This document shows, piece by piece, positions 48,630-63,550 of a DNA stretch of 64,000 bases (the first letter of the stretch is position 1; each line of letters opens with the position of its first letter). The position numbers and the translations under genes were made by a program. The stretch is from Syntrophomonadaceae bacterium. Its GTDB lineage: Bacteria > Bacillota > Dethiobacteria > DTU022. The notes under the pieces are model-generated. The model did not search any database, was not told the origin of the DNA, and saw only the letters and a program-made list of their open reading frames with translations. The DNA is taken from the NCBI GenBank assembly GCA_003554395.1, contig PWGD01000148.1, positions 70,036 to 134,035 on the forward strand, given 5' to 3'.

Positions 48630-49862
48630 TTAGCTGGTTTTGATGATGCCCCTTTTTTTCATTTCTTCCAGGTCGCTATAATCATAATCCAATTTTTCTA
48701 AGATTTCTAAAGTGTGCTCTCCGTGTTCCGGGGGCGGCAGGCGCAGCTCCCCGACTTGTCCTGAAAATAACAGGGGGAATCCAACCCGGGTCGTTTTTGC
48801 CGCCTTTGCAGGGGTCGCTTCAAGCCAGTAGTTGCCTTCCTGGGATAGGGGGTGCTTAATGGCTTCATTTAGATCAAGGACCGGTTCACAGCAGGCATCC
48901 AGGTTTGCAAAAATAACTTCCCACTCTTTCCGGCTCTTGCTCTTAAAGAGGGTCCGCACTTCTTGAATCAGTTCCCTGTTTCCCACCGGTTGATCTTGTT
49001 CCTGTGCGTACTGCCGGTCAATCCACTGCTCTTTTCCAACCGCCTCACAAAATCTTCGCCAGAATACCGGTTCCAGGGCACCTAGGCTCATAAATTTACC
49101 ATCGCCGGTTTCATAAATGTTGTAGCAGGCAAATGAACCGCTTAATAGGCCCCGGCCGCACCTGGGCAGTTCTGCTCCGGCGTCCAAAAAAGAAGCCGGG
49201 TAGGCAAGCCAGGGAAGCAGGCCCCGGGTCATTGAAACATCTACAAAACGGCCTGCGCCGGTTCTTTCTCTCTCATAAAGCGCGAACATAATTCCGTTCA
49301 GAGCCATCAGGGCACCGCCGCCAATGTCGGCAATCTGGGTGGCGGGCACTACCGGCTTCCCATCTTCTCCTGCACTTAACTCCAGCAACCCGCTTAACGC
49401 CGTGTAGTTTAAATCGTGTCCGGCTTTGTCCCGGTAGGGGCCCTTATAACCGTAACCGGTAATAGCGGCATAAACCAGGCGCCCGTTCAGCCCGCTTAAT
49501 ACCCGGTAACCAAGCCCCAGGCGGTCCATAACTCCAGGCCGAAAACCTTCCACCAGGACATCTGAAGCGGCCGCGAGGGCCTTCAGTATCTCCCGCCCTT
49601 CTTCATTCTTCAGGTCCAGGGCCAGGGATTTCTTGTTCCGGTTCAAGTGCTTAAATAAAGTCCCAACCGGGCCCTTTCCGCCTTTATAAGAAGAGCCGGC
49701 GAAACGGGTTGGATCGCCGGCCTCCACATTTTCTACTTTAATAATTTCAGCTCCGTAATCACCGAGGATCATCGTGCACAAAGGTCCCGGCAGCAGGCTG
49801 GTCAAATCCAGGACCTTTAGTCCTTCCAGGGGCTGAGCTCTTTTTTTGCCCGTTTCAGCCAT
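48630..49862 (-). CDS. Family III CoA-transferase (CaiB/BaiF family)
   Basis: 410 aa. N-terminus LEGLKVLDLTSLLPGPLCTMILGDYGAEIIKVE and a conserved Asp region. Its start overlaps the upstream gene's stop. Confidence 0.85.
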   Translation of the reverse strand: MAETGKKRAQPLEGLKVLDLTSLLPGPLCTMILGDYGAEIIKVENVEAGDPTRFAGSSYKGGKGPVGTLFKHLNRNKKSLALDLKNEEGREILKALAAASDVLVEGFRPGVMDRLGLGYRVLSGLNGRLVYAAITGYGYKGPYRDKAGHDLNYTALSGLLELSAGEDGKPVVPATQIADIGGGALMALNGIMFALYERERTGAGRFVDVSMTRGLLPWLAYPASFLDAGAELPRCGRGLLSGSFACYNIYETGDGKFMSLGALEPVFWRRFCEAVGKEQWIDRQYAQEQDQPVGNRELIQEVRTLFKSKSRKEWEVIFANLDACCEPVLDLNEAIKHPLSQEGNYWLEATPAKAAKTTRVGFPLLFSGQVGELRLPPPEHGEHTLEILEKLDYDYSDLEEMKKRGIIKTS

Positions 49863-51475
49863 TAGCGGTGGGTGTAATGCGGAAGCATGACCGGGCCGAC
49901 TCTTCCTTTGCCCGCATCCGCCTTCTCCAGTTCCTGGTGATATGAAGCCACATGATTCAAATTAAGCCCTTCCGGGGTTGAAATTTCCCTGCTTTTTTCG
50001 GCGGCGCTCTTACCGGCCCGCCGGCCAAACACAATTATGTCGAGCAGTGAATTGCCCATCAAACGGTTGGTGCCGTGAATTCCCCCGGCCGCCTCACCGG
50101 CCACGTAAAGATTTTCCACACTGCTGCGGGCCTGGTCATCAATCAGCAGCCCGCCATTCTGGTAATGCAAGGTCGGATAAATCAACATCGGTTCCTTGCG
50201 GATATCGACATCAAAACGATGAAACTGGCGCATCATGGCCGGAAGCTGGCGCTCAATAGTCCCTTCGCCATGAATTAACTCAAGAATGGGCGAATCCAAC
50301 CAGACTGCGGTAATCCCCGTCGGCAGGGGCACACCCAGCCCGCGCTCTTCACACTCACGGATAATGGCCGATGACTCTACATCCCTGGTTTCCAGGTGAT
50401 AAACAAACTGCTCCCCGTTGATATTGAGCGGTTGCGCCCCCAGGCCCCGGGTTTTTTCCGTAACCAGGAGCCCTAACAGTTGGGGCGGATAGGCGCCTCC
50501 GGTCGGGTGGTACTGGATAGAATCGGTGTAGATGGTTTTCGCTCCGGCCCGGTAACCTATGACCAGTCCGTCAGCGGTGGCTCCATAGTGATTGCTGGTG
50601 GGAAAACCGCGGTAGTGCAACCTACCCGAACCTCCGGTGGCGACTATGACTGTTTTAGCCCGGGCGATCAGGTACTGCTCCGTTTCGAGGTTATAAAGGA
50701 CGGCCCCGGCTGCGCAGCCCTGTTTATCGAGTAATATTTCCACCGCCGGGCTGAATTCAACCACGGTAATTCCTTTATTATAAACTTCATCTCTTAAAGT
50801 CCTCATTATTTCCGCCCCGGTATAATCGCGGGCGGCGTGCATCCGCTTGCGGGAAGTCCCTCCGCCGTGAATGGTGATCATCTTTCCTTCTTCGTTTTTG
50901 TCAAACATGGTCCCCAGCTCTTCCAGCCACTTGATCACCAGCGGAGCATCCATGACCAGGGCCCGGGCCAGTTCCGGGATATTTTCCAACCTTCCGCCGC
51001 CGAGAACGTCGAGGTAATGGATAGCCGGAGTATCATTTTCCTTATCGGCAGCCTGGATACCACCCTGGGCCATCATGGTGTTGGCGTCGCCAAAGCGCAG
51101 CTTGGTGGTCAGCAAAACATCGGCGCCGGCTTCCTGCGCTATGAGGGCTGCCGAAGCGCCGGCCCCCCCGCCGCCAATAATTAAAACATCTACATCATAG
51201 TCGGGGTCGGATTTTAAATCTAGATCGATATCCCGGAGGCGGCTGTAAGCTTCGAAAACGTCGGCCATCTCATTGGGCATGCGGGTTCCTTTATCCACTC
51301 CCACATTTATATTGCGAAAACCGTCTTCTATATAATCGGGATGAAACTTCCTTAAAACATCGCGCCTTTCTTCCGGAGACATTCGCGGGTATTCCACGCC
51401 GACCCGGGAGGCCCTGCTTGCTTCCACTTTTTTCATTAATTCTTTTAACTGCGGCGTATAAGCCAATGGTTTCAC
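49862..51475 (-). CDS. Fumarate reductase / succinate dehydrogenase flavoprotein-like subunit (soluble, FAD)
   Basis: 537 aa. GGGGAG dinucleotide fold, MMAQGGIQAA, HPTGG, HYQNGGL and a C-terminal arginine region. These are the SdhA/FrdA/NadB family signatures. It has a ~70-aa N-terminal extension. Confidence 0.8.
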   Translation of the reverse strand: MKPLAYTPQLKELMKKVEASRASRVGVEYPRMSPEERRDVLRKFHPDYIEDGFRNINVGVDKGTRMPNEMADVFEAYSRLRDIDLDLKSDPDYDVDVLIIGGGGAGASAALIAQEAGADVLLTTKLRFGDANTMMAQGGIQAADKENDTPAIHYLDVLGGGRLENIPELARALVMDAPLVIKWLEELGTMFDKNEEGKMITIHGGGTSRKRMHAARDYTGAEIMRTLRDEVYNKGITVVEFSPAVEILLDKQGCAAGAVLYNLETEQYLIARAKTVIVATGGSGRLHYRGFPTSNHYGATADGLVIGYRAGAKTIYTDSIQYHPTGGAYPPQLLGLLVTEKTRGLGAQPLNINGEQFVYHLETRDVESSAIIRECEERGLGVPLPTGITAVWLDSPILELIHGEGTIERQLPAMMRQFHRFDVDIRKEPMLIYPTLHYQNGGLLIDDQARSSVENLYVAGEAAGGIHGTNRLMGNSLLDIIVFGRRAGKSAAEKSREISTPEGLNLNHVASYHQELEKADAGKGRVGPVMLPHYTHR

Positions 51476-51490
51476 TCCTCCCCTCCGGGT

Positions 51491-52186
51491 CTATTTTTCA
51501 ATTTCCCGGTTATTGTATAGTTCCTGAAGTTTTTCCTTGTCGGCGTTGACCAGCTCACTAATATCGCTATCCATCTCACCTTCTTCAATCGCTTTTGCCC
51601 TTTCGCTTAAGAAAGCATCCGGCCTGGCAATATAACGGCTGTAGAGACGTCGGCCGGCCAGGGCGGAATTATAATGGACAATGTTGACCGGGCAGCGCGA
51701 TACGCACAGCCCGCACATCAGGCAGTCAAAAGAGAGGTCGGCCGCTTTTGCAAAATCGCCGCGCTGCAAATAGGCAACATACTGCATCACGTCAATATCC
51801 TGGGGGCAGACCTTGGTGCAGGAACCGCAGCCCAGGCAGCGAAAAACTTCCGGGTATAGTTGGGCAAAATCGGCTACCGTGGGTTTGATTTCCTCCAGAT
51901 CATAAACCGCCTTCCGGGCCGGGAAAAAGGGTATCTGGGCCAGGTACATCCCTTCTTCAACCTTGGTCTGACAGGCCAGGCCGACCTTCAATTCGAAATC
52001 GCCGGCTATCCGGTACACAGTGGCGCAGGCCCCGCAAAAACCGGCCCGGCAGCCGCAGCCCCGCTTGAGCTGGTAACCGGCATATTCCATGGCATCCATT
52101 ATGGTCAGGGTTTCCGGGACAGAATACTTTTTACCCATGATATAGATATCCACCATTTTAATGGCATCTTTTACTGTTTCGTTCAT
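51491..52186 (-). CDS. Succinate dehydrogenase/fumarate reductase iron-sulfur subunit-like ([2Fe-2S] + two Cys-x2-Cys-x2-Cys-x3-CysPro motifs)
   Basis: 231 aa. N-terminal plant-type ferredoxin cysteines (CGCRAGFCGAC...C), then CLGCGSCTKVCP and CLMCGLCVSRCP. Confidence 0.8.
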   Translation of the reverse strand: MNETVKDAIKMVDIYIMGKKYSVPETLTIMDAMEYAGYQLKRGCGCRAGFCGACATVYRIAGDFELKVGLACQTKVEEGMYLAQIPFFPARKAVYDLEEIKPTVADFAQLYPEVFRCLGCGSCTKVCPQDIDVMQYVAYLQRGDFAKAADLSFDCLMCGLCVSRCPVNIVHYNSALAGRRLYSRYIARPDAFLSERAKAIEEGEMDSDISELVNADKEKLQELYNNREIEK

Positions 52187-52240: not shown

Positions 52241-53581
52241 TTACTCTTCCGGCGGTTCCGGGATAAAGCCATGTTCCATGGCGAACCTGGTCTGATCCTG
52301 GGATCGCTTGATGAATGATTCCGCCTTCTGGTAACATTCGTCGCGGCTGAGCTTAATCCTGGCCAGCCCTTCGTCAATTGCTTTCATCGCCGTTGCCGTG
52401 GCTACCCTGGGAAATACCTCCCACATATCCATGGTCGGCAAAATTTTCTCCGGATCCATACCGCCGTCGGGAGCGCAGGCGGCAAGTTCTTCGGCGGCGG
52501 CAATACACATGGTATCGGAGATGCCGCTGGCCTGAACGTCCAGGACTCCGCGGAATATAGCCGGGAAACCAAGGGAATTGTTGACCTGGTTCGGGAAGTC
52601 GGAACGGCCGGTAGAAACAATCTTTGCTCCCGCTTCCAGGGCTTCCCAGGGCCATATTTCAGGGATGGGATTGGCGCAGGCAAAAACAATCGCCTCCCTG
52701 GCCATGCTTTCCACCCATTCTTTTTTAATAGTATCCGGACCCGGTTTGGAAAGGCCAATCAGGACATCGGCTCCTTTACAGGCTTCTGCGGCACCACCGG
52801 TTAATCCTTCCCCGTTTGTGGTCCGGGCCAGTTCCCATTTAACCGGGTGCTCTTCTTTTAGCTCGGTGCGTCCTTCATGCAGGGCCCCTTTGCTGTCGAT
52901 CATGATAATTTTTTTGGGATCCATACCGGCTGCTATCAGGAGCCTGACCGTACAAATGTTGGCCGCTCCCGCCCCGATCAGGACAGTTTTAACCTCGCCA
53001 ATTTTTTTGTTCACGATTTTAAGGGCATTGATCAACCCGGCCAAAGTAACCAGGGCGGTGCCCTGTTGATCATCGTGCCAAACCGGGATCTCGCATTCTT
53101 CCTTTAACCGGTCCAGGACGTAAAAGCATTTGGGGCTGGCAATATCCTCTAAGTTGATACCCCCGAAGCTGGGTTGAAGCATCTTGACAAAATTAATCAA
53201 CTCGTCGGCGTCTTTAGTATCGACACAGATAGGAAAAGCATCGACCCCGCCCAGGTATTTGAAAAGCAGGGCCTTTCCTTCCATTACAGGCATACTTGCC
53301 TCCGGGCCAATGTCGCCCAGGCCAAGGACCCTGGTCCCATCGGAGACAACAGCGCAAAAATTAGCCTTGTTGGTATACTTATAAACATCCTCTTTGTTTC
53401 GGGCAATAGCTTTACAGGGTTCAGCCACCCCGGGAGTATACCAGATTGCGAAATCGCCGATGTTGCGGACACAGCTCTTTAAATTAACTTCGATTTTACC
53501 CCTGTAAAAAGGATGAAGGCGCATAGCATCTTCAGCCGGCTTTTTGGCCTTGGCCAACAATTCATCTTTGTTCATAGTCAC
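52241..53581 (-). CDS. NAD(P)-dependent malic enzyme (short, MaeA/YtsJ type)
   Basis: 446 aa. Conserved N-terminus LHPFYRGKIEV, FAIWYTPGVAEPC, and a Rossmann motif GAGAAN. Confidence 0.9.
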   Translation of the reverse strand: MTMNKDELLAKAKKPAEDAMRLHPFYRGKIEVNLKSCVRNIGDFAIWYTPGVAEPCKAIARNKEDVYKYTNKANFCAVVSDGTRVLGLGDIGPEASMPVMEGKALLFKYLGGVDAFPICVDTKDADELINFVKMLQPSFGGINLEDIASPKCFYVLDRLKEECEIPVWHDDQQGTALVTLAGLINALKIVNKKIGEVKTVLIGAGAANICTVRLLIAAGMDPKKIIMIDSKGALHEGRTELKEEHPVKWELARTTNGEGLTGGAAEACKGADVLIGLSKPGPDTIKKEWVESMAREAIVFACANPIPEIWPWEALEAGAKIVSTGRSDFPNQVNNSLGFPAIFRGVLDVQASGISDTMCIAAAEELAACAPDGGMDPEKILPTMDMWEVFPRVATATAMKAIDEGLARIKLSRDECYQKAESFIKRSQDQTRFAMEHGFIPEPPEE

Positions 53582-53656: not shown

Positions 53657-54208
53657 TTAACGTGCGTAAGCTTTAGCTCCTTCAGCATATAAATCATTAC
53701 CGTAGGCATCGTTTATAACTGTAGCCGGAAAATCTTCCACTTCAAGACGGTGGATAGCTTCTGCTCCCAGTTCCGGGTAGGCCACCACTTCGCTTTGCTT
53801 GATCTTTTGGGAAAGCAGGGCCCCTGCTCCTCCCACCGCAGCCAGATAAAGGCCCTTGTACTGCTGCAGGGCATCTTTGACAGTCTGGTTGCGGAGGCCT
53901 TTTCCAATGCAGGCCTTCATGCCTTTTTCCAGCATCCGCGGCGTATAGGCGTCCATCCGGCCGCTGGTAGTCGGGCCGGCCGAGCCGATTACCTGCCCCG
54001 GTTTGGCCGGAGTCGGTCCAACATAATAGATAATCTGTCCCTGCAGGTCAATCGGCAGAGATTCTCCTTGATCCATTAACTCAACCAGTTTTTTATGGGC
54101 AGCATCCCGGGCGGTGTAGATAACACCGTTAATCAGGACATTATCACCGGTTTTCAGGGACAGGACAGCCTCATCTGTGAGAGGGGCTTCAATTTTTTTG
54201 GGTTCCAT
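53657..54208 (-). CDS. fumB: Class I fumarate hydratase (Fe-S hydro-lyase, tartrate/fumarate subfamily), beta subunit
   Basis: 183 aa. TtdB/FumB-like C-terminal domain. Confidence 0.85.
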   Translation of the reverse strand: MEPKKIEAPLTDEAVLSLKTGDNVLINGVIYTARDAAHKKLVELMDQGESLPIDLQGQIIYYVGPTPAKPGQVIGSAGPTTSGRMDAYTPRMLEKGMKACIGKGLRNQTVKDALQQYKGLYLAAVGGAGALLSQKIKQSEVVAYPELGAEAIHRLEVEDFPATVINDAYGNDLYAEGAKAYAR

Positions 54209-54224
54209 ACCTGTTTGCCTCCTT

Positions 54225-55070
54225 CTAGATTATCTTCTCCAGGTGCCGGCAGGCATGGCAGTTGATGTTCACCGCTGCCGCCATGCTGGCAATATGAGAA
54301 GGAAAAGTTTCAATGTGCACGGCCAGGGCAAAAACCCTGCCCCCGAAGCCCTGCGGACCCACACCAAGGTCATTGATCTTGTCCAGGATTTTATTTTCCA
54401 GGGCGGCAAAGCGGCTATCCGGGTGGGGCTGACCCACCGGCCGGAACAGGGCCTTTTTAGCCTGGACCGCCACCTTGTCAAAAGTGCCTCCGATACCCAC
54501 CCCTACCACAATCGGCGGGCAGGGGTTGGGGCCTGCCGTTTTGACATGGTTGACCACAAAATCGATCAGGCCCTCTTCGCCGTCAGCAGGTTTCAACATT
54601 TTAACGGCGCTCATGTTTTCGCTTCCGCCTCCCTTGGGGGCGAAAGCTATTTTCACCTTGTCCCCGGGAACAATAGCGGTATAAATAACGGCTGGAGTAT
54701 TGTCTCCGGTATTTTTACGGTCATAGAGAGGATCCTCAACAATTGATTTACGCAGGTATCCTTCAGTATAACCTTTTTTAACCCCGGCATTGATCGCTTC
54801 TTCCAGGGTTCCCCCGGTCAGGTGCACCTCCTGGCCCAGCTCCACAAAAAAAACGGCAAACCCCGTATCCTGGCAGATCGGAATTTGCTCGTTTTTGGCA
54901 ATTTCCAGGTTATCGATTAATTGTTTGAGCACCTCTTTCCCCGTTGGCGATTCTTCTACCTCCAGGGATCGCTTCAGGGCCCCTGAGACATCTTCACCGA
55001 GATAAATATTGGCTTCTTCGCACATCCCGGCCACTGTATCAGTGATGGTCGACACGGCAAGTTCGCGCAA
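54225..55070 (-). CDS. fumA: Class I fumarate hydratase, alpha subunit (Fe-S, N-terminal domain)
   Basis: 281 aa. TTG start with GGGAGGTG RBS. Cys ligands C..C...C. TtdA/FumA family. Confidence 0.85.
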   Translation of the reverse strand: MRELAVSTITDTVAGMCEEANIYLGEDVSGALKRSLEVEESPTGKEVLKQLIDNLEIAKNEQIPICQDTGFAVFFVELGQEVHLTGGTLEEAINAGVKKGYTEGYLRKSIVEDPLYDRKNTGDNTPAVIYTAIVPGDKVKIAFAPKGGGSENMSAVKMLKPADGEEGLIDFVVNHVKTAGPNPCPPIVVGVGIGGTFDKVAVQAKKALFRPVGQPHPDSRFAALENKILDKINDLGVGPQGFGGRVFALAVHIETFPSHIASMAAAVNINCHACRHLEKII

Positions 55071-55186
55071 AATCCTGCACCTCCCTGTTTTTGTAGATAC
55101 TTACTGTACGAATCGTATTAATTTATTTTCTGTTTCCAGGGAGAAATTCCTGCCGGCAGTTATAATATTTATTATAATTCTAATAT

Positions 55187-57230: not shown

Positions 57231-58793
57231 TTAGTAACCCCCTTCCATTTGCAGGGCCCGGGCCGGGCACTCAGTGACACAAATGCCGCAACCCTTGCAG
57301 TAGTCAAGATTAAATTCATAGTTGTTGTTAATCCACTCAACGGCCACATCCGGACAAAAAAGATAGCAAATCCCGCATGTATTGCAGGTCCCGCATCCAA
57401 GGCAGCGGCCGGCCTCCAAAACCGGTTCCTTCTGCCTGTCCTGCAGCTCCAGGTCAGACCTGCCCAGCAGGTTCAATTCTTCAAAAGCCACCGGCTGCTC
57501 TGAAATACCAAAAACATCAGGACCGGGCCGGCTCTCTATCTTGGCCATAATGCTAAAAGCAGCCAGGCGCCCGGCCCTGATCGCTTCAGGGACCGTGGCG
57601 GGACCGCTGACCAGGTCTCCCCCGGCAAAGAGGGACATCTCTTCTTCAAGGGGATCAAAAACACTATAATCAGGTTCCTGGCCAAGAGCCAGGATTACCG
57701 ATCCGCATTCCTTTTTAAAAGTACGGCTCGTATCCAAGACCAGTCCTTCCCGGTTGGTTTTACTGTGATTGAAAAGCACAGCGCTGATGGAGCCGGAAGC
57801 GGTTTCTGTAACAACTTCAGCCGGATTGGCGTTAAAAACGAGCTCCACTCCTTCCTGTTCCGCCATTTCGACCTCACCCGGGTTGGCCGGCATTTCCGCC
57901 CGGCTTCTGCGGTAAATAAGGCTGACATGATTAATGCCATTCATGCGCAGGGCCGATCGGGCGCTGTCTACGGCCGCATTACCGCCCCCGATCACCACAA
58001 CCGGATCCTTTATTTCCACATGCTGTCTGGTATTGAACAGGCTTAGAAAATCCAGGGCATGGTAAACGCTTTTATGCTCCGCCCCCGCTAATTTTTCTTG
58101 GCGCGGCAGCCAGGCCCCCGTGGCCAGGAAAACTTCCCTGAAATCGTTGTTAAGTTCCCGCAGCATTAAATCCTCACCCAGGGTTCGGTTGGTGATAAAA
58201 GTTATGCCTTCCTCTTCCAGGATGGCCAGCTCCTTATTTAAAACCTCCCTGGGAAGGCGATATTCAGGGATTCCCAGGGCCAGCATTCCACCGCTTATCG
58301 AAGATTTTTCAAAAACGGTTACTTTGTAGCCATGATCTGAAAGGTAAAAAGCGCAGCTCAATCCCGCCGGCCCGGATCCGACCACCGCCACCGGATCTTT
58401 TACCGCCCGCGGCCCGCGCCGGGGCTGGTAGTGATCAAAGCGCCACTCGCCAATGGCCCTTTCAACAGCCGGTATTTCCAGTTCCTGATCCAGCCTGCCC
58501 CGGTTGCAGTTTTCAGTACAGGGAGAAAAACAGACATGGCCGGTCAGGGCCGGAAAGGGATTGGAACGGCTCATTATCTGCCAGGCGTCCTCCCACCGGC
58601 CGCCCTTGACCGCCTCCATCCAGTCGGGTACTTCTGAATGGAGAAGGCAATCGTGGCGGCATGGAGATAATCTTTTTATCTTCTCCGGAGCCGCCAGGCG
58701 CCAACCGCCGGTCTTGTTTAATGAACTGGCCTCACTTCCCCGGGCATAAAGATAGTTAAGAAGGGCTTCGTTTGTCTTACCTGACAAGGCCAC
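57231..58793 (-). CDS. GltD-like NAD(P)H-dependent flavoprotein fused to a 2x[4Fe-4S] ferredoxin domain (occupies the PorD/delta position of the oxidoreductase operon)
   Basis: 520 aa. N-terminal Fe-S cysteines (SPCRHDC...CFSPCTENC). Two dinucleotide folds (VAVVGSGPAGLSCA, VVVIGGGNAAVDSA), as in the glutamate synthase small subunit / SudA / NfnB family. C-terminal CLGCGTCNTCGICYLFCP...CKGCGICVTECP. Confidence 0.75.
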   Translation of the reverse strand: MALSGKTNEALLNYLYARGSEASSLNKTGGWRLAAPEKIKRLSPCRHDCLLHSEVPDWMEAVKGGRWEDAWQIMSRSNPFPALTGHVCFSPCTENCNRGRLDQELEIPAVERAIGEWRFDHYQPRRGPRAVKDPVAVVGSGPAGLSCAFYLSDHGYKVTVFEKSSISGGMLALGIPEYRLPREVLNKELAILEEEGITFITNRTLGEDLMLRELNNDFREVFLATGAWLPRQEKLAGAEHKSVYHALDFLSLFNTRQHVEIKDPVVVIGGGNAAVDSARSALRMNGINHVSLIYRRSRAEMPANPGEVEMAEQEGVELVFNANPAEVVTETASGSISAVLFNHSKTNREGLVLDTSRTFKKECGSVILALGQEPDYSVFDPLEEEMSLFAGGDLVSGPATVPEAIRAGRLAAFSIMAKIESRPGPDVFGISEQPVAFEELNLLGRSDLELQDRQKEPVLEAGRCLGCGTCNTCGICYLFCPDVAVEWINNNYEFNLDYCKGCGICVTECPARALQMEGGY

Positions 58794-59367
58794 CCACCTC
58801 CCTTACTCTTTCAGATCCTTCGTTAACAGCGCTGATATTGGCTTCTAAACTGGCCGTTATCCTTTTTTTGATTGAATCAACCAGGTTATCCAGGGAAGCT
58901 ATACCGCTAACCCGGGCCATCGCTCCGAGCATAACTGTATTGACCACCGGAAAACCGGCCACTGTCAAACCGTGCTTGCGGGCAATATCGGTAGCATCAA
59001 CAGTATAAACTCTGAAGCGGTTTCCTGCCAGGGCATCACCGGGCAAGTTGTCCAGGTTATCCTCTGCGATGTTAACCATTAGAATGCCCCCTTCTTTCAG
59101 GCCGGAAAGCAGGGTTTCATCGCTCAGAGTCGGATCGAAAACAACAACATAATCCGGGTTATAAATACGGCTCCTGGGCATCAGGGGATTTTCTCCGGCT
59201 CTTATAAAGGCAGTCACCGGAGCGCCGCGCCTTTCAGCCCCGAACAATGAAAAGGCCCTTGCATAGCGGCCGTCCAGAAATACAGCTTCGGCAAAAATTG
59301 CGGCCGCTACGACGATCCCCTGGCCGCCGCGTCCATGCAGCCTAAATTCAAGCATGCTGTCAGCCAT
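58777..59367 (-). CDS. porG: 2-oxoacid:ferredoxin oxidoreductase gamma subunit (pyruvate/ketoisovalerate oxidoreductase gamma)
   Basis: 196 aa. Conserved start FRLHGRGGQGIV. Confidence 0.9.
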   Translation of the reverse strand: MADSMLEFRLHGRGGQGIVVAAAIFAEAVFLDGRYARAFSLFGAERRGAPVTAFIRAGENPLMPRSRIYNPDYVVVFDPTLSDETLLSGLKEGGILMVNIAEDNLDNLPGDALAGNRFRVYTVDATDIARKHGLTVAGFPVVNTVMLGAMARVSGIASLDNLVDSIKKRITASLEANISAVNEGSERVREVGGLVR

Positions 59368-59459: not shown

Positions 59460-60494
59460 TTACCGCATCTGCAATCTCTCTTCGGCATAAATATCTGCTA
59501 TCTCTGCCGGCAGTAACTGTTCTTCCCGGGCTCTTCTGAACAACATCTTAAGGCGTTCTTCAATGCGGTCCACTTCTGCTGTGATTTTCTCTTGATCAGT
59601 AATACCCTGCCTGTGCATTTCAACAAAAACCAGGCCGCCGGCATTGATGACATAATCGGGGGCATAAAGAATGCCTCGCTCTTGTATAGCTTTAGCCATC
59701 TCTTTAGTTTTGTAGATGTTATTGGCGGCGCCGGCAATAATTTTACATTTTAACTGGGGCAGAGTTTTTTCATTTATTACTCCCCCGCCCGCACAAGGCG
59801 AAAAGATATCGCATTCCTGGCTATAAATATCTTCGGGGGAAACCGCCCGGGCACCCCACTTTTCCTGGGCTGCTTTCACTCTCTCCTGGTCCAGATCGCA
59901 AATAATCAGGCTGGCTCCTTCATCAACCAGGTGCTGACAGAGGGATTCGCCCACACTGCCAATACCCTGGACGGCTACAACTTTACCTTCCAGATTAGGA
60001 GAACCATATACCTCCTCTGCACAAGCCCTGATGCCTCTCCAGACCCCGTAAGCAGTAAAAGGAGAAGGGCTGCCCACACTCTCACCGCCGATAACGCATT
60101 CTGTTTCGTCGCACATTAAAGTCAGATCATCCTCATCGACACCCATATCTTTACCGGTATAAAAACGTTTGTTTAAGCGATTAAGGAAACGGCCGTAAGA
60201 ATGGAAAAGTTCCGGACACTTATCCTTATTGGGATCTCCGATAATAAGGCCTTTCCCTCCTCCGACCGGCAGCTCCGCTGCAGCAGACTTGTAACTCATT
60301 CCGCGGGCCAGATGCATTAAATCCTCTATGGCCGCTTCTTCTGAAGCATAAGACCACATGCGGGTTCCACCCAGGGCCGGACCACGGACTGTGCTGTGAA
60401 TGGCAACCGCCGCTTTTAAACCGCACGAGGCATCACATACCATAATCAATTCTTCGAAACCCTGTTCTTCCATCTTGGCCAGATAACCGGACAT
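59460..60494 (-). CDS. Glu/Leu/Phe/Val dehydrogenase family, leucine/valine-dehydrogenase-like (paralog 2)
   Basis: 344 aa. LGPALGGTRMW..GGGK (catalytic Lys region), NAD fold GIGSVG. Close to LeuDH in length and sequence. Confidence 0.85.
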   Translation of the reverse strand: MSGYLAKMEEQGFEELIMVCDASCGLKAAVAIHSTVRGPALGGTRMWSYASEEAAIEDLMHLARGMSYKSAAAELPVGGGKGLIIGDPNKDKCPELFHSYGRFLNRLNKRFYTGKDMGVDEDDLTLMCDETECVIGGESVGSPSPFTAYGVWRGIRACAEEVYGSPNLEGKVVAVQGIGSVGESLCQHLVDEGASLIICDLDQERVKAAQEKWGARAVSPEDIYSQECDIFSPCAGGGVINEKTLPQLKCKIIAGAANNIYKTKEMAKAIQERGILYAPDYVINAGGLVFVEMHRQGITDQEKITAEVDRIEERLKMLFRRAREEQLLPAEIADIYAEERLQMR

Positions 60495-60761
60495 GATTAT
60501 CCTCCTCTAAAAAAATTTTATTAACCTTTCTTAACATAATAATTCGCAATTTTCTTACCAAACTTTTTTTAGTGCCCTCCCAAACCGGCTTATCTTCGCT
60601 GGAATTATTAAATTTTTCCCCACAACCGCTTCATCCAGGGCCGGGCAGGCTTCGAGATACCATGCATAATTTTGCAAATTGTAATTGTTTGCTTGCATAA
60701 TTTTGCATGGTTGCTTATCCGTACCATCCAACCGCTTTGTAAAATTCCTGCCTTTCCAACT

Positions 60762-61796
60762 TTATCTTTTTCCCAGTTTTTCCTCGGCATAAATGTTGGC
60801 CGCCTCTTCCGGGAGCAGGTTTTGTTCACGGGACCGGCTGAATAGTTCTTTCAGGCGTCCCTCGATCCGGGCTATTAGCTGCCTGATTTTCTCTTCATCC
60901 CTTTCACCCTGCCTCCGCATCTCGACAAAAATTAATCCCCCGGCGTTAATGATATAATCGGGGGCATAAAGGATCCCCCGTTCCTTGAGGGCGGCACCGA
61001 GCCCCTCTTCCTTAATAACATTGTTGGCCGCACCGGCCACAATATTGCATTTCAGGTGGGATAATGTTTGTTCATTGATCACCCCTCCGATCCCGCAGGG
61101 CACGAAGATATCGCACTCCCGGAAAATAATTTGATCGGTATCGACCGCCGTAGCACCAAAGGTGGTTACCGCCTGCTTAACCCTGTTTTGATCGAGATCG
61201 CTTACCAGCAGCCGGGCGCCTTCTCCGGCCAGGGACCCGCAAAGGGCCGCGCCTACACTGCCCACCCCCTGGACAGCAATGACCTTGTCTTCCAGGTTCG
61301 GGGAACCGTAGACCTCCTCTGCGCAGGCTTTAATGCCTTTCCAGACCCCGTAGGCGGTAAAGGGTGACGGGCTGCCGATTTCAGTTCCCCCCACCACATG
61401 GCGGGTTTCCTTCCTGATGCAGTCCAGGTCGTTCTCTTCGATTCCCATATCGGCCGCTGTTATAAATCTGCCATTTAAATGTTCCACGAAGCGACCGTAA
61501 CAACTGAACAGCTCTTCGCATTTGTCCCGACCGGGATCGCCAATGATCACCCCTTTCCCCCCGCCGAGCGGCAGGTCCGCGGCCGCTGCCTTGTAACTCA
61601 TCCCGCAGGCCAGGCACATGACATCATCCACGGCCTCCTCTTCGCTTGGGTATGTCCACATCCGGGTTCCTCCCAGGGCCGGTCCGAGGGCCGTGCTGTG
61701 AATGGCTATCGCCCCCTTCAGGCCGGTCTCTGTATCATGGAGCAGGACCAGTTCCTCAAATCCTTTTTCTTCCATTTTAGCCAGGTATTCAGTCAT
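60762..61796 (-). CDS. Glu/Leu/Phe/Val dehydrogenase family, leucine/valine-dehydrogenase-like (paralog 1)
   Basis: Start at MTEYLAKMEE with a GGAGGG RBS. About 65% identical to paralog 2 across the full length. Confidence 0.85.
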   Translation of the reverse strand: MTEYLAKMEEKGFEELVLLHDTETGLKGAIAIHSTALGPALGGTRMWTYPSEEEAVDDVMCLACGMSYKAAAADLPLGGGKGVIIGDPGRDKCEELFSCYGRFVEHLNGRFITAADMGIEENDLDCIRKETRHVVGGTEIGSPSPFTAYGVWKGIKACAEEVYGSPNLEDKVIAVQGVGSVGAALCGSLAGEGARLLVSDLDQNRVKQAVTTFGATAVDTDQIIFRECDIFVPCGIGGVINEQTLSHLKCNIVAGAANNVIKEEGLGAALKERGILYAPDYIINAGGLIFVEMRRQGERDEEKIRQLIARIEGRLKELFSRSREQNLLPEEAANIYAEEKLGKR

Positions 61797-61867
61797 AATT
61801 AGTCCCTCCATTATATAAGTCAGGCTCGCTGGTTGCTTGCATTGGTTGCTTTTATAAACTATATATT

Positions 61868-61883
61868 TGCAATTTTTATACCA
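61868..61883 (-). promoter_or_regulatory. Sigma-54 (-24/-12) promoter TGGTAT-N5-TTGCA upstream of the dehydrogenase/oxidoreductase operon
   Basis: Minus strand TGGTATAAAAATTGCA. GG and GC are separated by 10 nt, as in the consensus TGGCAC-N5-TTGCW. It is ~70 nt upstream of the paralog-1 start. A sigma-54 EBP gene lies immediately upstream. Confidence 0.45.
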
Positions 61884-62161
61884 GTTTGCTTAATTGCCGC
61901 CTGGCATAGACATTTTCATAGGGGCTGAGTGTTAAGGTGCTGTCTGAAATTGTTTTTGGTGGGAGCAATGTTAAGATTTGATTAAGGGACAAGGATCTGG
62001 CAGGGGGTTCCGAAGTTGCTGCGGCTGCCTGGCAGTATTTTCAAGATTCGCCTGTCGCCTCGATCTGCTGTAGGGCAGAGCAATTAACGCAGCATGATTT
62101 GATTTGCCTGTAAATTTAAGCCTTTATACCGCCGCCTCTTTGTTCTGGAAAAAAGCTTGAA

Positions 62162-63550
62162 CTAGAGGAGGTTGTGCCGGTGCATTTTGTTGTAGAGGCT
62201 GCGGATAGAAATATCAAGGCGGCGAGCCGCTTCGGCCTTGTTCCAACCCGTTTCTTTCAAAGCCTGCTGCAACAGATCTTTTTCCCAAACCCGGTGCATC
62301 TGCCGGAGCGTCCCCTGAAGCGGCGTATCATCCCGGTCCTTTTCTTCACCGGCGCCGCCGAAAGGCATGACCAGATGCTTTTCTTCGATCACGTCCTGGT
62401 CGCGGCCAAGATTGATCAGGGCCCGGGCAATTACATTTTCCAGCTCGCGCATGTTGCCGGGCCAGTCGTATTCTTTAAGGCGGCGGTAGACCGCGGGGGA
62501 TACATCGACAATCGGCCGGCCGTACTTCTTGGTCAGTCCGGCCAGGAAATGGTTGACCAGGAGGGGAATATCGCTTTTAATATCCCGCAGGGGAGGCAGG
62601 TGAATGGGCAATACGTTCAGGCGGTAATACAGATCCTTGCGAAATAAGCCCTCTTCGACCATTTCTTCCAGGTTGGCATTAGTGGCTACAATCAGACGCA
62701 CATCGATGGCCCTGGTCCGCGATTCACCGACCCTGATGATCTCACCTTCCTGAATGGCCCGGAGCAGCCGGGCCTGGGCCTCGTTTCCCATGGCCCCGAT
62801 TTCATCCAAAAATAGAGTACCACCGTTGGCTTCTTCGAAATAGCCTTTGCGCCCGCCTTTTTTAGCCCCTGTAAAAGCGCCGTCGGCATAGCCGAAGAGC
62901 TCGCTTTCCAGCAGGGTGTCGGTCAGGGAGGCGCAGTTAAGCCGGATAAAGGGCTCATCGGTCCTCTCGCTGTCATGGTGGATAGCATGGGCAAACAGCT
63001 CCTTGCCGGTCCCGCACTCGCCCCGCAGGAGCACGCAGGCCGGGGTAGCTGCCCCCTGCCTGGCCCGTTCAATTGTTTCCCGGATCTGCTCGCTGTTACC
63101 GATAATATCATCAAAGGTATAATGCGATTCAAGCTCCCTGACCAGGCGTCTGGTGCGGTGCAGTTCTTCCATCACCCGGCGCAGTTCGGATATATCGTGG
63201 ATAACCCCGACACTGCCTTTCAATTGACCCTTGATGATCAGCGGGGCGCAGCTGACAATCACTTCCCGGCGGAAGGGGCCTACTTTCATCCGCACGCCCT
63301 TAATCGGTTTGCCGGTTTGCAGAACCCGCATATGAACGCTCTCGCCTTCGGCTATATCGACTGTAGCAGGCTTTCTCAGGACCTGTTCTTCGCTCATCCC
63401 TGTAATCCTGGTATAAGCCCGGTTAACCATGATCCCGATCCCGTTTTCATCGACCACCGAAACGGCATCGGAAAGAGAATCGATAATAGTTTGCAGAAGC
63501 AGTTTACTATCACCGTCTGTTGCAAGAGAAGGAATATTTTCATTGTTCAT
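62162..63550 (-). CDS. Sigma-54-dependent transcriptional activator with N-terminal PAS domain and C-terminal Fis-type HTH (RocR/BkdR/PrpR-like EBP)
   Basis: 462 aa. PAS ([20 protein letters not shown]...), AAA+ with Walker A GECGTGKE, the GAFTGA sigma-54 contact motif, and a C-terminal HTH. Confidence 0.92.

What the first reader, a model, noticed from the sequence alone, without database searches (positions are those of the whole stretch)
48630..63550. Sigma-54-controlled amino-acid / C4-dicarboxylate oxidation supercluster
Twelve co-directional genes follow a PAS-domain sigma-54 activator and a well-formed -24/-12 promoter. Most are separated by <=20 nt or overlap; the exceptions are the promoter-containing gaps before fumA (116 nt), between the two dehydrogenases (267 nt), before porG (92 nt), and smaller gaps before the malic enzyme and fumB.

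The genes are:
- two Leu/Val-type amino-acid dehydrogenases;
- a 4-subunit 2-oxoacid:ferredoxin oxidoreductase (gamma, delta-fusion, alpha, beta);
- class I fumarase alpha and beta;
- malic enzyme;
- an SdhB/SdhA-like pair with no membrane anchor;
- a family III CoA-transferase.

The front half mirrors the B. subtilis BkdR/sigma-54 bkd operon, which begins with leucine dehydrogenase. Here a ferredoxin-linked 2-ketoisovalerate-type oxidoreductase takes the place of the BCKDH complex. The back half (succinate to fumarate to malate to pyruvate, plus CoA transfer) resembles the terminal steps of the methylmalonyl-CoA pathway (mmc) cluster of syntrophic propionate oxidizers. That cluster is also headed by a sigma-54 regulator. 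A glutamate to 2-oxoglutarate to succinyl-CoA to succinate to fumarate to malate to pyruvate route would also use every gene in order. The combination in one regulon has not, to my knowledge, been characterised.
Basis: partly seen in the sequence, partly recalled or inferred. Interest (0 to 1): 0.7.

Follow-up and report, generated by a model that had tools for sequence, protein, structure and literature searches.

The report
Amino-acid oxidation operon beside fumarate-reduction operon
The twelve genes are real, but they form two neighbouring operons rather than one sigma-54 regulon: a sigma-54-controlled operon that oxidises leucine-type amino acids, and a separately controlled operon that most likely reduces fumarate to succinate instead of oxidising succinate.

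Summary
The gene inventory is confirmed on the minus strand, with corrections.

- **Promoters.** There are two conserved sigma-54 promoters, one before each leucine-dehydrogenase-type gene. There is none before porG, fumA or any later gene.
- **The "delta fusion".** It is an Nfn/GltD-like NADPH flavoprotein fused to the ferredoxin-like delta subunit of a POR/VOR-type (not KOR-type) 2-oxoacid oxidoreductase.
- **The "SdhAB-like" pair.** It belongs to a soluble fumarate-reductase family. The histidine that normally binds FAD covalently is an invariant Asn. In most other genomes the pair is fused to Flx-Hdr modules next to fumarase, as in the succinate operon of Pseudoclostridium thermosuccinogenes.
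- **The beta-fumA gap.** It carries a strongly conserved AT-rich palindrome, which I read as the back half's own promoter/operator.
- **Separability.** Relatives carry the front half alone or the back half alone. In one relative an opposite-strand gene lies between the halves.
- **Linkage.** The two halves still recur together in about ten loci from uncultured Bacillota, once with different flanking genes.

Best reading: two operons. They are probably coupled by redox balance, with 2-oxoacid oxidation feeding fumarate reduction and a CoA transfer to succinate. This is a new variant of known kinds and moderately interesting.

The parts
62162..63550 (-). Sigma-54 enhancer-binding activator (PAS, AAA+ with GAFTGA, AAA lid, Fis-type HTH), 462 aa. 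Its ATG overlaps the ligA stop codon (ATGA).
   Evidence: Pfam Sigma54_activat 4e-67, PAS, HTH_8. Best NCBIfam match is PrdR, 403 bits, below the cut-off of 795. GAFTGA at residue 224 and the junction sequence are.
61868..61883 (-). Sigma-54 promoter P1 (TGGTATAAAAATTGCA), upstream of DH1.
   Evidence: The orthologous motif TGGTAYGnnAATTGC lies at the same position in L001-L005 and L081-L083.
60762..61796 (-). DH1, a leucine-dehydrogenase-type amino-acid dehydrogenase (344 aa from ATG 61796). It is the ancestral single-copy type, with pocket residues L40/A113/L291/V294.
   Evidence: Pfam ELFV_dehydrog_N and ELFV_dehydrog. Best solved relative is LeuDH 6acf, E = 6.6e-103.
60663..60707 (.). Two exact copies of the near-palindrome TGCAAAATTATGCA, 31 bp apart, at -147 and -116 from promoter P2. 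Candidate enhancer or operator for DH2.
   Evidence: Conserved with the same 31-bp spacing upstream of the second DH in L081 (TGCAATATTTTGCA, twice). Absent upstream of P1 in all loci.
60545..60560 (-). Sigma-54 promoter P2 (TGGTAAGAAAATTGCG), upstream of DH2.
   Evidence: The equivalent in L081 is at position 8285.
59460..60494 (-). DH2, a diverged paralogue of DH1 (65% identity) with A113 changed to G and E114 changed to K in the pocket. The G/L pairing resembles phenylalanine dehydrogenase.
58777..59367 (-). 2-oxoacid oxidoreductase gamma subunit.
   Evidence: Pfam POR 2.7e-40. TIGR02175 PorC_KorC scores 181 bits against a cut-off of 81.
57231..58793 (-). Fusion protein: an Nfn/GltD-like NADPH flavoprotein (two N-terminal 4Fe-4S clusters, FAD and NAD(P)H Rossmann folds, motif IYRRSRAEMPA) joined to a C-terminal PorD-like 2x[4Fe-4S] delta domain.
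   Evidence: Pfam Fer4_20, Pyr_redox_2 and Fer4. PRK12771 403 bits; PorD and PadF hits. Best solved relatives are Nfn-type subunits (9n5u 244 bits, 5jca_L, 4ylf_B), then GltD. More than 7,500 homologues.
56086..57228 (-). 2-oxoacid oxidoreductase alpha subunit (380 aa).
   Evidence: POR_N and PFOR_II. PorA_Arch 327 bits and VOR alpha 292 bits, against KorA 73 bits. Four-subunit POR 9bt4_B scores 205 bits, against KOR 8ys5 at 57 bits.
55187..56089 (-). 2-oxoacid oxidoreductase beta subunit (TPP-binding, 300 aa).
   Evidence: TPP_enzyme_C. VOR-beta PRK11864 363 bits and PorB 334 bits, against KorB 49 bits. 9bt4_C scores 232 bits, against KOR at 50 bits.
55144..55183 (-). Conserved AT-rich element TTAGAATTATAATAAATATTATAA (7-4-7 palindrome TTATAAT-AAAT-ATTATAA), followed by GCAGGAATTT. 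Candidate promoter/operator of the back-half operon.
   Evidence: Alignment of 8 loci. Unique in the window, with 0 hits expected by chance. Zero or one mismatch in L001, L004, L081, L082 and L083. A degenerate copy lies before fumA in L091, which lacks the front half. A sigma-70-like match overlaps the element.
54225..55070 (-). Class I (Fe-S) fumarate hydratase alpha subunit, with a TTG start.
   Evidence: Pfam Fumerase 1.6e-117. NF004885 scores 405 bits against a cut-off of 276.
53657..54208 (-). Class I fumarate hydratase beta subunit.
   Evidence: Fumerase_C 7e-62. NF005310 scores 275 bits against a cut-off of 238.
52241..53581 (-). Malic enzyme (short form, without the PTA-like domain).
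   Evidence: Pfam malic and Malic_M. The N-terminal part of the NADP-dependent malic enzyme model scores 326 bits.
51491..52186 (-). Iron-sulfur subunit of the soluble fumarate-reductase-like enzyme (2Fe-2S motif plus two CxxCxxCxxxCP motifs, no CCG domain).
   Evidence: 63% identical to the FeS protein of the Flx-Hdr-linked cluster in L084.
49862..51475 (-). Flavoprotein of the soluble fumarate-reductase-like enzyme (about 534 aa). It has a conserved 93-aa N-terminal extension and Asn in place of the FAD-linking His. The HPT motif and residues R343, H437 and R471 are conserved.
   Evidence: FAD_binding_2 7.7e-65. TfrA 320 bits, below cut-off. Alignment to SdhA 7d6v. Column counts over 120 homologues.
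48630..49862 (-). Family III CoA-transferase. Its ATG overlaps the flavoprotein stop codon.
   Evidence: CoA_transf_3 5e-105. No NCBIfam cut-off is reached; the full-length matches are succinate-glutarate and succinyl-CoA:mesaconate transferases. Best solved relative is SUGCT 9br7, 210 bits. Junction sequence.

Best explanation
The region holds two adjacent, co-directional operons.

**Operon A (61883 to 55187).** It is driven by two sigma-54 promoters under the upstream PAS-domain activator.
- Two leucine-dehydrogenase-type enzymes deaminate branched-chain or other hydrophobic amino acids to 2-oxoacids.
- A POR/VOR-type four-subunit oxidoreductase converts the 2-oxoacids to acyl-CoA and CO2.
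- Its delta subunit is fused to an Nfn/GltD-like flavoprotein. Electrons are therefore expected to pass from TPP through the Fe-S chain to FAD and on to NADP+, instead of (or as well as) to free ferredoxin.

**Operon B (about 55183 to 48630).** It has its own conserved AT-rich promoter/operator. It encodes class I fumarase, malic enzyme, a soluble two-subunit fumarate reductase with non-covalent FAD, and a family III CoA-transferase.

**How the two are probably coupled (inferred, not shown).**
- The reductive branch (malate to fumarate to succinate) disposes of the reducing equivalents made when 2-oxoacids are oxidised.
- Those 2-oxoacids come from amino acids through DH1/DH2, or are pyruvate made from malate by the malic enzyme.
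- The CoA-transferase passes the thioester from the acyl-CoA product to succinate, giving succinyl-CoA.

**Shown:** the gene identities, the promoters and their conservation, the separability and recurrence of the two modules, and the loss of the FAD-linking histidine.

**Inferred:** substrates, NADP+ as acceptor, the direction of flux, the coupling, and the electron donor of the reductase.
For: **Anatomy**

**Sigma-54 control of operon A only**
- GAFTGA is present in the activator.
- TGG-N8-TTGC motifs lie directly upstream of DH1 and DH2. In L001-L005 and L081-L083 an equivalent motif precedes the first gene after the activator. No locus has one before fumA, the malic enzyme or the FeS gene.

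**Independent unit B**
- A 24-nt element is conserved with 0-1 mismatch across loci whose proteins differ by 20-45%.
- The element is unique in the window.
- It is retained, in degenerate form, in L091, which lacks operon A.
- L083 has an opposite-strand gene between beta and fumA.
- L005 and L007 have opposite-strand ORFs after beta.

**Functional linkage**
- Both modules are adjacent in the window, L002, L004, L081, L082, L083, L087 and L088/L094. L001 and L003 carry the fumA-upstream element at their truncated ends.
- L088 has different flanking genes. There a malate dehydrogenase replaces the malic enzyme, and an aminotransferase is added.
- L087 has a TAXI-TRAP transporter between the two modules.
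- The loci without a dehydrogenase (L082, L087) keep the malic enzyme. The locus without a malic enzyme (L088) keeps a dehydrogenase and an aminotransferase.

**Reductive direction**
- Asn is invariant at the FAD-linking His position in 120 of 120 homologues, and the catalytic residues are all kept.
- Most of the 80 metagenomic loci place the same pair directly after HdrBCA-FlxDCBA or HdrA-MvhD, often next to fumarase.
- The same architecture forms the 'succinate operon' of the succinate producer P. thermosuccinogenes (PMC7282089).
- That covalent flavinylation is required for succinate oxidation is established knowledge from E. coli FrdA His44 mutants and from soluble fumarate reductases. I take it from memory.

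**NADP(H)**
- The YRRS(R/K)xEMPA motif is shared with Nfn/GltD relatives.
Against: - No transcript, enzyme or growth data exist for this organism or its relatives. All of them are metagenome-assembled genomes.
- No intrinsic terminator was found in the beta-fumA gap, so read-through from the sigma-54 promoters into operon B is possible.
- Part of the co-occurrence may only reflect a conserved chromosomal backbone, because ligA upstream and nth-lonC downstream are also conserved in most loci. Only L088/L094 break that backbone.
- The reductase has no recognisable electron-input module in this clade, and no Flx or Hdr homologue lies in the window.
- The malic enzyme is reversible, and POR and VOR specificity cannot be told apart by sequence scores.
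- The CoA-transferase reaches no family cut-off and is absent in L093.
- The complementarity between dehydrogenase and malic enzyme rests on three informative loci.
Confidence: 0.5

Rival explanations
1. A single sigma-54 regulon oxidises amino acids completely. Branched-chain acyl-CoA is converted to propionyl-CoA, methylmalonyl-CoA and succinyl-CoA. These then pass to succinate (CoA-transferase), fumarate (SdhAB-like pair), malate (fumarase) and pyruvate (malic enzyme), as in the mmc cluster of syntrophic propionate oxidisers.
For: - All genes are co-directional and no terminator lies between the halves.
- MeaB and a methylmalonyl-CoA-mutase-like enzyme lie just upstream of ligA in L081, L083 and L091.
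- The relatives are labelled Syntrophomonadaceae.
- The malic enzyme favours decarboxylation.
- The CoA-transferase resembles enzymes that use succinyl-CoA.
Against: - No sigma-54 promoter precedes the back half, which has its own conserved element.
- The modules are separable, and L083 has an opposite-strand gene between them.
- The flavoprotein lacks the covalent-FAD histidine and has no membrane anchor or quinone site. Its family is tied to a succinate-forming operon.
- No epimerase, carboxyltransferase or succinyl-CoA synthetase lies in the window.
Confidence: 0.15
2. The two operons are functionally unrelated neighbours. Operon B is a constitutive anaplerotic or reductive-TCA branch that happens to sit next to a mobile catabolic operon inserted between ligA and fumA.
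For: - Back-half proteins are much more conserved (79-90% identity) than front-half proteins (61-78%).
- L091/L092 have ligA directly followed by fumA through the CoA-transferase on the same backbone.
- The surrounding window consists of housekeeping genes.
- The front half occurs alone in L005-L007.
Against: - The pairing recurs with different flanking genes in L088/L094, with gene substitutions (MDH in place of the malic enzyme) and insertions (aminotransferase, transporters) that keep the pathway logic.
- The pairing persists down to 43% identity of the fusion protein.
Confidence: 0.22
3. Biosynthetic reading. The cluster runs in reverse: pyruvate to malate, fumarate, succinate and succinyl-CoA. 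The oxidoreductase then reductively carboxylates acyl-CoA to 2-oxoacids, which the dehydrogenases aminate. This gives either glutamate through 2-oxoglutarate or branched-chain amino acids from fatty acids.
For: - A fumarate-reductase-type flavoprotein fits a reductive branch.
- An NADPH-linked or possibly bifurcating flavoprotein could supply electrons.
- That 2-oxoacid oxidoreductases are reversible is established knowledge.
Against: - The dehydrogenases have hydrophobic LeuDH-type pockets, not the Lys/Ser that bind glutamate.
- The oxidoreductase is not KOR-type.
- Sigma-54 activators with PAS domains next to LeuDH are typical of catabolic operons (established knowledge: bkd and roc).
- NADPH alone cannot drive reductive carboxylation, which has a midpoint potential of about -500 mV.
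Confidence: 0.05
4. Direct wiring. The Nfn-like/delta fusion acts as an electron hub, possibly a bifurcating one. It connects the oxidoreductase and NADPH to the FeS/flavoprotein pair and so replaces the Flx-Hdr module that the same reductase uses elsewhere.
For: - The reductase pair sits next to a candidate bifurcating module in both contexts: HdrA in most genomes, and an Nfn-type flavoprotein here.
- The FeS subunit carries a 2Fe-2S cluster, as does the high-potential branch of Nfn (the Nfn comparison is from memory).
- No other electron-input module is encoded locally.
Against: - L091/L092 keep the reductase without the fusion nearby.
- The fusion occurs widely without the reductase.
- No co-fold or interaction evidence exists.
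- GltD-type relatives do not bifurcate.
Confidence: 0.08

Closest known systems
B. subtilis bkd operon with the sigma-54 activator BkdR
   Same: A sigma-54 enhancer-binding activator controls an operon that begins with a leucine dehydrogenase and goes on to a 2-oxoacid-oxidising enzyme that forms acyl-CoA.
   Different: - Here a TPP/Fe-S oxidoreductase of the POR/VOR type, with a fused NADPH flavoprotein, replaces the lipoamide BCKDH complex.
- There are no ptb or buk genes.
- There are two dehydrogenase paralogues, each with its own sigma-54 promoter.
- The activator's best (sub-threshold) profile match is PrdR, not BkdR.
Phenylglyoxylate:NAD+ oxidoreductase PadEFGHI of Azoarcus/Aromatoleum
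   Same: A POR-family 2-oxoacid oxidoreductase with an extra flavoprotein that lets it reduce a pyridine nucleotide. The gamma, delta, alpha and beta subunits all hit the Pad profiles.
   Different: - All scores are far below the Pad cut-offs (41-218 bits against cut-offs of 150-700).
- Here the flavoprotein is fused to delta. In Pad, as I recall it, the flavoprotein is a separate subunit (PadH); this was not checked here.
- The gene context is amino acids and C4 acids, not aromatic compounds.
Flx-Hdr-associated 'novel fumarate reductase' of Pseudoclostridium thermosuccinogenes (succinate operon; PMC7282089 and the preprint it cites)
   Same: - The two-gene FeS + flavoprotein reductase lies next to fumarate hydratase.
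- The window's pair is 63-68% identical to the pair in clusters of that architecture (L084).
   Different: - No Flx or Hdr genes lie at this locus.
- Here the partners are a malic enzyme, a family III CoA-transferase and the neighbouring oxidoreductase operon.
- Homology to the P. thermosuccinogenes proteins themselves was inferred from architecture, not from their sequences.
Thiol:fumarate reductase TfrAB of methanogens
   Same: A soluble fumarate reductase without a membrane anchor. TfrA is the best NCBIfam match of the flavoprotein (320 bits), and the N-terminus of TfrB matches the FeS protein.
   Different: - Both scores are far below cut-off (718 and 385 bits).
- The FeS protein lacks the HdrD-like CCG domains of TfrB.
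mmc cluster of Pelotomaculum thermopropionicum
   Same: Fumarase, a C4-dicarboxylate dehydrogenase/reductase, a 2-oxoacid oxidoreductase and a nearby mutase (in relatives) are clustered together.
   Different: - No transcarboxylase, epimerase or succinyl-CoA synthetase lies in the window.
- There is no membrane-bound Sdh.
- The flavoprotein is of the reductase type.
- The composition of the mmc cluster is taken from memory.
NfnAB and GltD
   Same: The N-terminal two thirds of the fusion share the fold, the two 4Fe-4S sites, and the FAD and NADPH motifs.
   Different: - There is no NfnA-like partner.
- A C-terminal PorD domain ties it to a TPP enzyme.

Membership tests
Sigma-54-dependent operon (bEBP system) | Activator with an AAA+ sigma-54 interaction domain and a GAFTGA loop | tested here: met
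   Pfam Sigma54_activat 4e-67; GAFTGA at residue 224.
Sigma-54-dependent operon (bEBP system) | -24 GG / -12 GC promoter (TGG-N8-TTGC) upstream of the regulated gene | tested here: met
   Present before DH1 and DH2 and conserved in 8 orthologous loci. Absent before porG, fumA, the malic enzyme and the FeS gene.
Sigma-54-dependent operon (bEBP system) | Upstream activator-binding sites | tested here: inconclusive
   A conserved double palindrome lies upstream of P2 only. None was recognised upstream of P1.
Sigma-54-dependent operon (bEBP system) | rpoN present in the genome; transcription dependent on it | not testable with these tools
   Only a 64-kb window is available, and there are no expression data.
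Leucine/valine/phenylalanine dehydrogenase branch of the ELFV family | Catalytic Lys80, Lys68 and Asp115, and a hydrophobic pocket (L40, A113, V291, V294 in L. sphaericus numbering) | tested here: met
   K68, K80 and D115 are kept in all copies. The pocket is L/A/L/V in DH1 and L/G/L/V in DH2 (the reference sequence used as a ruler was recalled from memory). Best solved relatives are leucine dehydrogenases.
Glutamate dehydrogenase | Profile membership | tested here: not met
   GluDH profiles score 40-76 bits against cut-offs of 536-822.
POR/VOR-type four-subunit 2-oxoacid:ferredoxin oxidoreductase | Alpha (POR_N), beta (TPP-binding), gamma (POR) and delta (2x[4Fe-4S]) subunits encoded together | tested here: met
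   The gamma subunit passes TIGR02175. Alpha and beta fall just below the equivalog cut-offs (363 against 405 bits for beta).
2-oxoglutarate:ferredoxin oxidoreductase (KOR) | Alpha and beta subunits match the Kor profiles or structures best | tested here: not met
   KorA 73 bits and KorB 49 bits. KOR structure 8ys5 scores 57 and 50 bits, against 205 and 232 bits for POR 9bt4.
Respiratory succinate dehydrogenase / quinol:fumarate reductase (complex II) | Histidine that binds FAD covalently in the flavoprotein | tested here: not met
   The His in AHTVMAEGG of SdhA 7d6v aligns with Asn in ANTMMAQGG. The Asn is invariant in 120 of 120 homologues.
Respiratory succinate dehydrogenase / quinol:fumarate reductase (complex II) | Membrane anchor subunit(s) | tested here: not met
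   No such gene lies in the cluster or its orthologues.
Respiratory succinate dehydrogenase / quinol:fumarate reductase (complex II) | Catalytic HPT motif, proton-donor Arg, and substrate-binding His and Arg | tested here: met
   YHPTG, TRG, LHYQNGG and NRLMGNS are invariant.
Flx-Hdr-linked soluble fumarate reductase (P. thermosuccinogenes type) | FeS + flavoprotein pair homologous to those that follow flxDCBA-hdrBCA | tested here: met
   63% (FeS) and 68% (flavoprotein) identity to the pair in L084. Many such loci were found.
Flx-Hdr-linked soluble fumarate reductase (P. thermosuccinogenes type) | Adjacent Flx-Hdr genes | tested here: not met
   No Flx or Hdr homologue lies in the window or in the orthologous loci.
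Pelotomaculum-type mmc cluster | Methylmalonyl-CoA mutase, epimerase, transcarboxylase, succinyl-CoA synthetase and Sdh encoded together | tested here: not met
   None of these lies in the window. Only an MCM-like mutase and MeaB lie beyond ligA in relatives.
Family III CoA-transferase | CoA_transf_3 domain over the full length | tested here: met
   5e-105, residues 12-384. No equivalog cut-off is reached, so the specificity is unknown.

The most novel reading that the evidence does not exclude
In this clade the soluble fumarate reductase has exchanged its usual Flx-Hdr partner for the neighbouring oxidoreductase, whose delta subunit is fused to an Nfn-type flavoprotein. Together they would form a cytoplasmic 2-oxoacid/NADPH:fumarate oxidoreductase system. 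It might bifurcate electrons at the Nfn-like flavin. That would let amino-acid or malate fermenters conserve energy from fumarate reduction without a membrane complex.
Probability: 0.1. Interest if true: 0.8.

Novelty: new variant of a known kind. Interest (0 to 1): 0.5.

Why it matters
If the reading is right, three things follow.

1. **A common but unstudied enzyme.** The 2-oxoacid oxidoreductase with a fused Nfn/GltD-like flavoprotein has more than 7,500 homologues. My literature searches found no characterised example apart from the distantly related phenylglyoxylate enzyme. It would send low-potential electrons to NADP+, and that changes how redox budgets of anaerobic amino-acid degraders should be modelled.

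2. **A second context for a poorly known reductase.** The soluble, Flx-Hdr-type fumarate reductase has been proposed but not biochemically proven to bifurcate electrons. Here it occurs without Flx-Hdr, which gives a natural comparison for testing what supplies its electrons.

3. **Automatic annotation would mislead.** It would label the pair 'succinate dehydrogenase' and suggest succinate oxidation. The missing FAD-linking histidine argues the opposite. That matters for metabolic reconstructions of soda-lake and digester Syntrophomonadaceae-like MAGs.

The conserved AT-rich operator and the twin sigma-54 promoters are concrete, testable regulatory elements.

Tried and rejected
- **Exact-sequence look-up** of the window's CoA-transferase found nothing, so the source organism is not identified.
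- **First genome scan** with the single fusion protein found no relatives. An alignment was needed.
- **Sigma-54 consensus search** with mismatches gave fewer hits than chance. I replaced it with a strict motif plus orthologous conservation.
- **Terminator or structured RNA in the beta-fumA gap:** no convincing terminator, folding no better than shuffled sequence (z = -1.0), and no Rfam family or tRNA anywhere in the window.
- **Flx/Hdr homologues in the window:** none.
- **Glutamate to 2-oxoglutarate route:** rejected on dehydrogenase and KOR profile scores.
- **Isobutyryl-CoA mutase reading** of the mutase upstream of ligA in relatives: the MCM model scores higher (669 bits against 382 for IcmF), though below cut-off because the protein is split. 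Diagnostic residues were not checked.
- **Identity of the AT-rich element:** by eye it has partial resemblance to CodY and ARG boxes. I did not pursue this, because such matches are easily found in AT-rich sequence.
- **Literature searches** for a characterised GltD/Nfn-fused oxidoreductase, or for this gene combination, found nothing relevant.
- **The 'Ca. Contubernalis alkaliaceticus' genome paper** does not discuss these genes.
- **A motif search across loci** failed because I mis-specified the pattern. I redid it with fuzzy matching.

Full report
**1. What is in the sequence**

All the genes lie on the minus strand. From upstream to downstream they are as follows.

- **Activator (62162-63550).** A PAS + AAA+ + HTH_8 sigma-54 activator with GAFTGA at residue 224. 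Its ATG overlaps the stop codon of ligA.
- **DH1 (60762-61796) and DH2 (59460-60494).** Two ELFV-family dehydrogenases.
- **Oxidoreductase subunits.** Gamma (58777-59367), a 520-aa fusion protein (57231-58793), alpha (56086-57228) and beta (55187-56089).
- **Class I fumarase.** Alpha (54225-55070) and beta (53657-54208).
- **Malic enzyme (52241-53581).**
- **Fe-S protein (51491-52186)** and **FAD_binding_2 flavoprotein (49862-51475).**
- **Family III CoA-transferase (48630-49862)**.

Endonuclease III and LonC follow.

The rest of the window is a housekeeping backbone on the same strand: dnaE, pfk, pyk, the rpsB-tsf-pyrH-frr-uppS-cdsA-dxr-rseP-ispG run, nusA-infB, truB and ribF. It contains no Rfam family and no tRNA.

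**2. Promoters**

The strict motif TGG-N8-TTGC occurs three times on the minus strand of the 64-kb window. Two of these are TGGTATAAAAATTGCA (61883-61868, before DH1) and TGGTAAGAAAATTGCG (60560-60545, before DH2).

Counts alone are not above chance. The evidence is conservation. Eight related loci carry TGGTAYGnnAATTGC immediately upstream of the first gene after the activator. One of them is a locus in which that gene is gamma, because no dehydrogenase is present. The one relative with two dehydrogenases also has two promoters. No locus has such a motif before fumA, the malic enzyme or the FeS gene.

Upstream of P2 lie two exact copies of TGCAAAATTATGCA, 31 bp apart. They are conserved with the same spacing in L081.

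The beta-fumA gap contains a different element: TTAGAATTATAATAAATATTATAA (a 7-4-7 palindrome) followed by GCAGGAATTT.
- It is unique in the window, with none expected by chance.
- It has 0-1 mismatch in five loci whose proteins are only 54-78% identical to those of the window. The flanking intergenic DNA is not conserved.
- A degenerate copy precedes fumA in L091, which lacks the front half altogether.

I read this as the back half's own promoter/operator. No terminator was found in the gap, so read-through cannot be excluded.

**3. Comparative genomics**

The fusion protein has more than 7,500 homologues. The nearest genomes are uncultured Syntrophomonadaceae/Bacillota MAGs, several of them from soda-lake sediments. 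The source organism itself was not found.

| Arrangement | Loci |
|---|---|
| Full arrangement, ligA to nth-lonC | L002, L004, L081, L082, L083 |
| Zero, one or two dehydrogenase genes | L082 / L002, L004, L083 / window, L081 |
| Opposite-strand gene between beta and fumA | L083 |
| Front half alone, followed by opposite-strand ORFs | L005, L007 |
| Back half alone on the same backbone | L091, L092 |
| No CoA-transferase | L093 |

So the two halves are separable modules. They also recur together in more distant loci.
- **L087** (fusion 47% identical) has a TAXI-TRAP transporter between the halves, and no activator or dehydrogenase.
- **L088/L094** (43% identical) has different flanking genes, an added aminotransferase and an EamA transporter, and a malate dehydrogenase in place of the malic enzyme.

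This argues for a functional link and not only backbone synteny.

**4. The enzymes**

*Dehydrogenases.*
- DH1 and DH2 are 65% identical. Their best solved relatives are leucine dehydrogenases.
- The catalytic residues are kept.
- The pocket is L/A/L/V in DH1, which is the type found in single-copy loci. It is L/G/L/V in DH2, where the Ala-to-Gly change is the one that distinguishes phenylalanine dehydrogenases (the residue roles are from memory).

*Oxidoreductase.* Alpha and beta are closest to four-subunit POR and to the VOR/POR profiles. They are far from KOR.

*Fusion protein.* It combines a Fer4_20 domain, a Pyr_redox_2 flavoprotein and a PorD-like domain. The flavoprotein part is closest to Nfn-type subunits and then to GltD, and it shares their YRRSxxEMPA motif. 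The expected electron path therefore runs from TPP through Fe-S clusters to FAD and NADP+. This resembles the NAD+-reducing phenylglyoxylate oxidoreductase in principle.

*Flavoprotein.*
- It keeps every catalytic residue of fumarate reductases.
- It has Asn where complex II has the FAD-linking histidine, invariant in 120 homologues.
- It carries a conserved 93-residue N-terminal extension.

*FeS partner.* It has a 2Fe-2S motif and two 4Fe-4S motifs, and no CCG domain.

*CoA-transferase.* It reaches no family cut-off and is nearest to enzymes that use succinyl-CoA.

**5. Context of the reductase elsewhere**

Homologues 58-80% identical occur in Marinisporobacter, Acetoanaerobium, Halanaerobiales and many metagenomes, including those of the human gut. 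In most of these loci the pair follows hdrB-hdrC-hdrA-flxD-flxC-flxB-flxA, or a shorter hdrA-mvhD module. It is often followed by fumarase, sometimes with a malic enzyme or dicarboxylate transporters.

This is the architecture of the 'succinate operon' of the succinate producer Pseudoclostridium thermosuccinogenes. For that operon an electron-bifurcating fumarate reductase has been proposed (PMC7282089). No Flx or Hdr homologue lies in the window.

**6. Interpretation**

The front half is a sigma-54-controlled operon for oxidising branched-chain or hydrophobic amino acids. This is well supported.

The back half is a separately controlled module that interconverts malate, fumarate and succinate. 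Its flavoprotein is built for fumarate reduction.

The recurring pairing is best explained by redox and CoA coupling.
- Oxidising a 2-oxoacid yields reducing equivalents and an acyl-CoA. The 2-oxoacid comes from amino acids through the dehydrogenases, or is pyruvate made from malate by the malic enzyme.
- Fumarate reduction consumes the electrons.
- The CoA-transferase moves the thioester to succinate.

Every enzyme then runs in its favourable direction. The model also accounts for the pattern across loci. The loci without a dehydrogenase keep the malic enzyme. The locus without a malic enzyme keeps a dehydrogenase and an aminotransferase.

This coupling is inferred. It rests on a few loci and on no experiments.

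The promoter architecture, the separability of the modules and the nature of the flavoprotein disfavour it.

**7. Verdict**

The region is a new variant of known kinds, assembled from uncharacterised members of known families, and is of moderate interest.

Noticed in passing
window 63547-63550: The activator's ATG overlaps the stop codon of the NAD-dependent DNA ligase gene (ATGA). L081 has the same overlap, while L082 and L083 have gaps of 100-180 nt. The regulator therefore seems to be co-transcribed with a housekeeping gene.
   Followed up: partly
window 60663-60707: Two exact TGCAAAATTATGCA near-palindromes, 31 bp apart, lie upstream of the second sigma-54 promoter only. They are conserved in L081 but absent upstream of the first promoter in every locus. 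The protein that binds them is unknown.
   Followed up: partly
window 59460-60494 compared with 60762-61796: The dehydrogenase gene is duplicated only in the window and in L081. The second copy has a pocket change from Ala to Gly, as in phenylalanine dehydrogenases. This suggests a widened or shifted amino-acid range.
   Followed up: partly
L084-L086, L096, L118, L123, L127, L128, L133, L138, L139, L141, L142, L149, L156, L157, L159-L161, L164, L166: A conserved nine-gene cluster, hdrB-hdrC-hdrA-flxD-flxC-flxB-flxA-FeS-flavoprotein, is often followed by fumarase. It is widespread in Clostridia-like contigs, including human gut metagenomes. It matches the proposed bifurcating fumarate reductase of P. 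thermosuccinogenes.
   Followed up: partly
L097-L101, L108, L110, L111, L114, L116, L137, L147, L152, L158: In a second, shorter context of the same reductase pair, hdrA-like and mvhD-like genes lie directly upstream, without the FlxABC genes. Sometimes extra HdrA and GltD-like genes are nearby.
   Followed up: no
L091 and L092, positions 5300-6470: On the same ligA to nth-lonC backbone, the 8-kb activator-dehydrogenase-oxidoreductase block is missing. It is replaced by about 1.1 kb containing repeated 'ACTGAGAAAAGTT' stretches and a 180-aa ORF. This may be a deletion or insertion scar.
   Followed up: no
L081 221-3277; also L082, L083, L091: MeaB, a split methylmalonyl-CoA-mutase-like enzyme and a cobalamin adenosyltransferase lie just upstream of ligA in relatives. 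Acyl-CoA dehydrogenases lie further upstream in L082 and L087. The window ends inside ligA, so this could not be seen in the window itself.
   Followed up: partly
L012-L080 (for example L015, L021, L063): Actinomycetota and Proteobacteria carry the same Nfn/GltD-delta fusion (33-36% identity) in the gene order gamma-alpha-beta-fusion, without dehydrogenase or fumarase genes. A pyridine-nucleotide-linked 2-oxoacid oxidoreductase therefore appears to be widespread in aerobes and facultative anaerobes too.
   Followed up: no
L002 13538-14214: The beta-fumA gap is expanded to 676 nt and carries two overlapping copies of the AT-rich element.
   Followed up: no
L086 14354-16426: A PAS-domain sigma-54 activator with a C-terminal winged-helix domain, 45% identical to the window's activator, lies next to a Flx-Hdr fumarate-reductase cluster that has dicarboxylate and 2HCT transporters.
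   Followed up: no
window 34290-35597 (+): A DUF1015 protein is one of the few plus-strand genes in an otherwise uniformly minus-strand housekeeping region.
   Followed up: no
window 49862-51475, residues 1-93: The flavoprotein's N-terminal extension is conserved across the whole family (64-75% column identity) but matches no Pfam domain. Its role is unknown; it could be a docking element for the electron-input module.
   Followed up: partly
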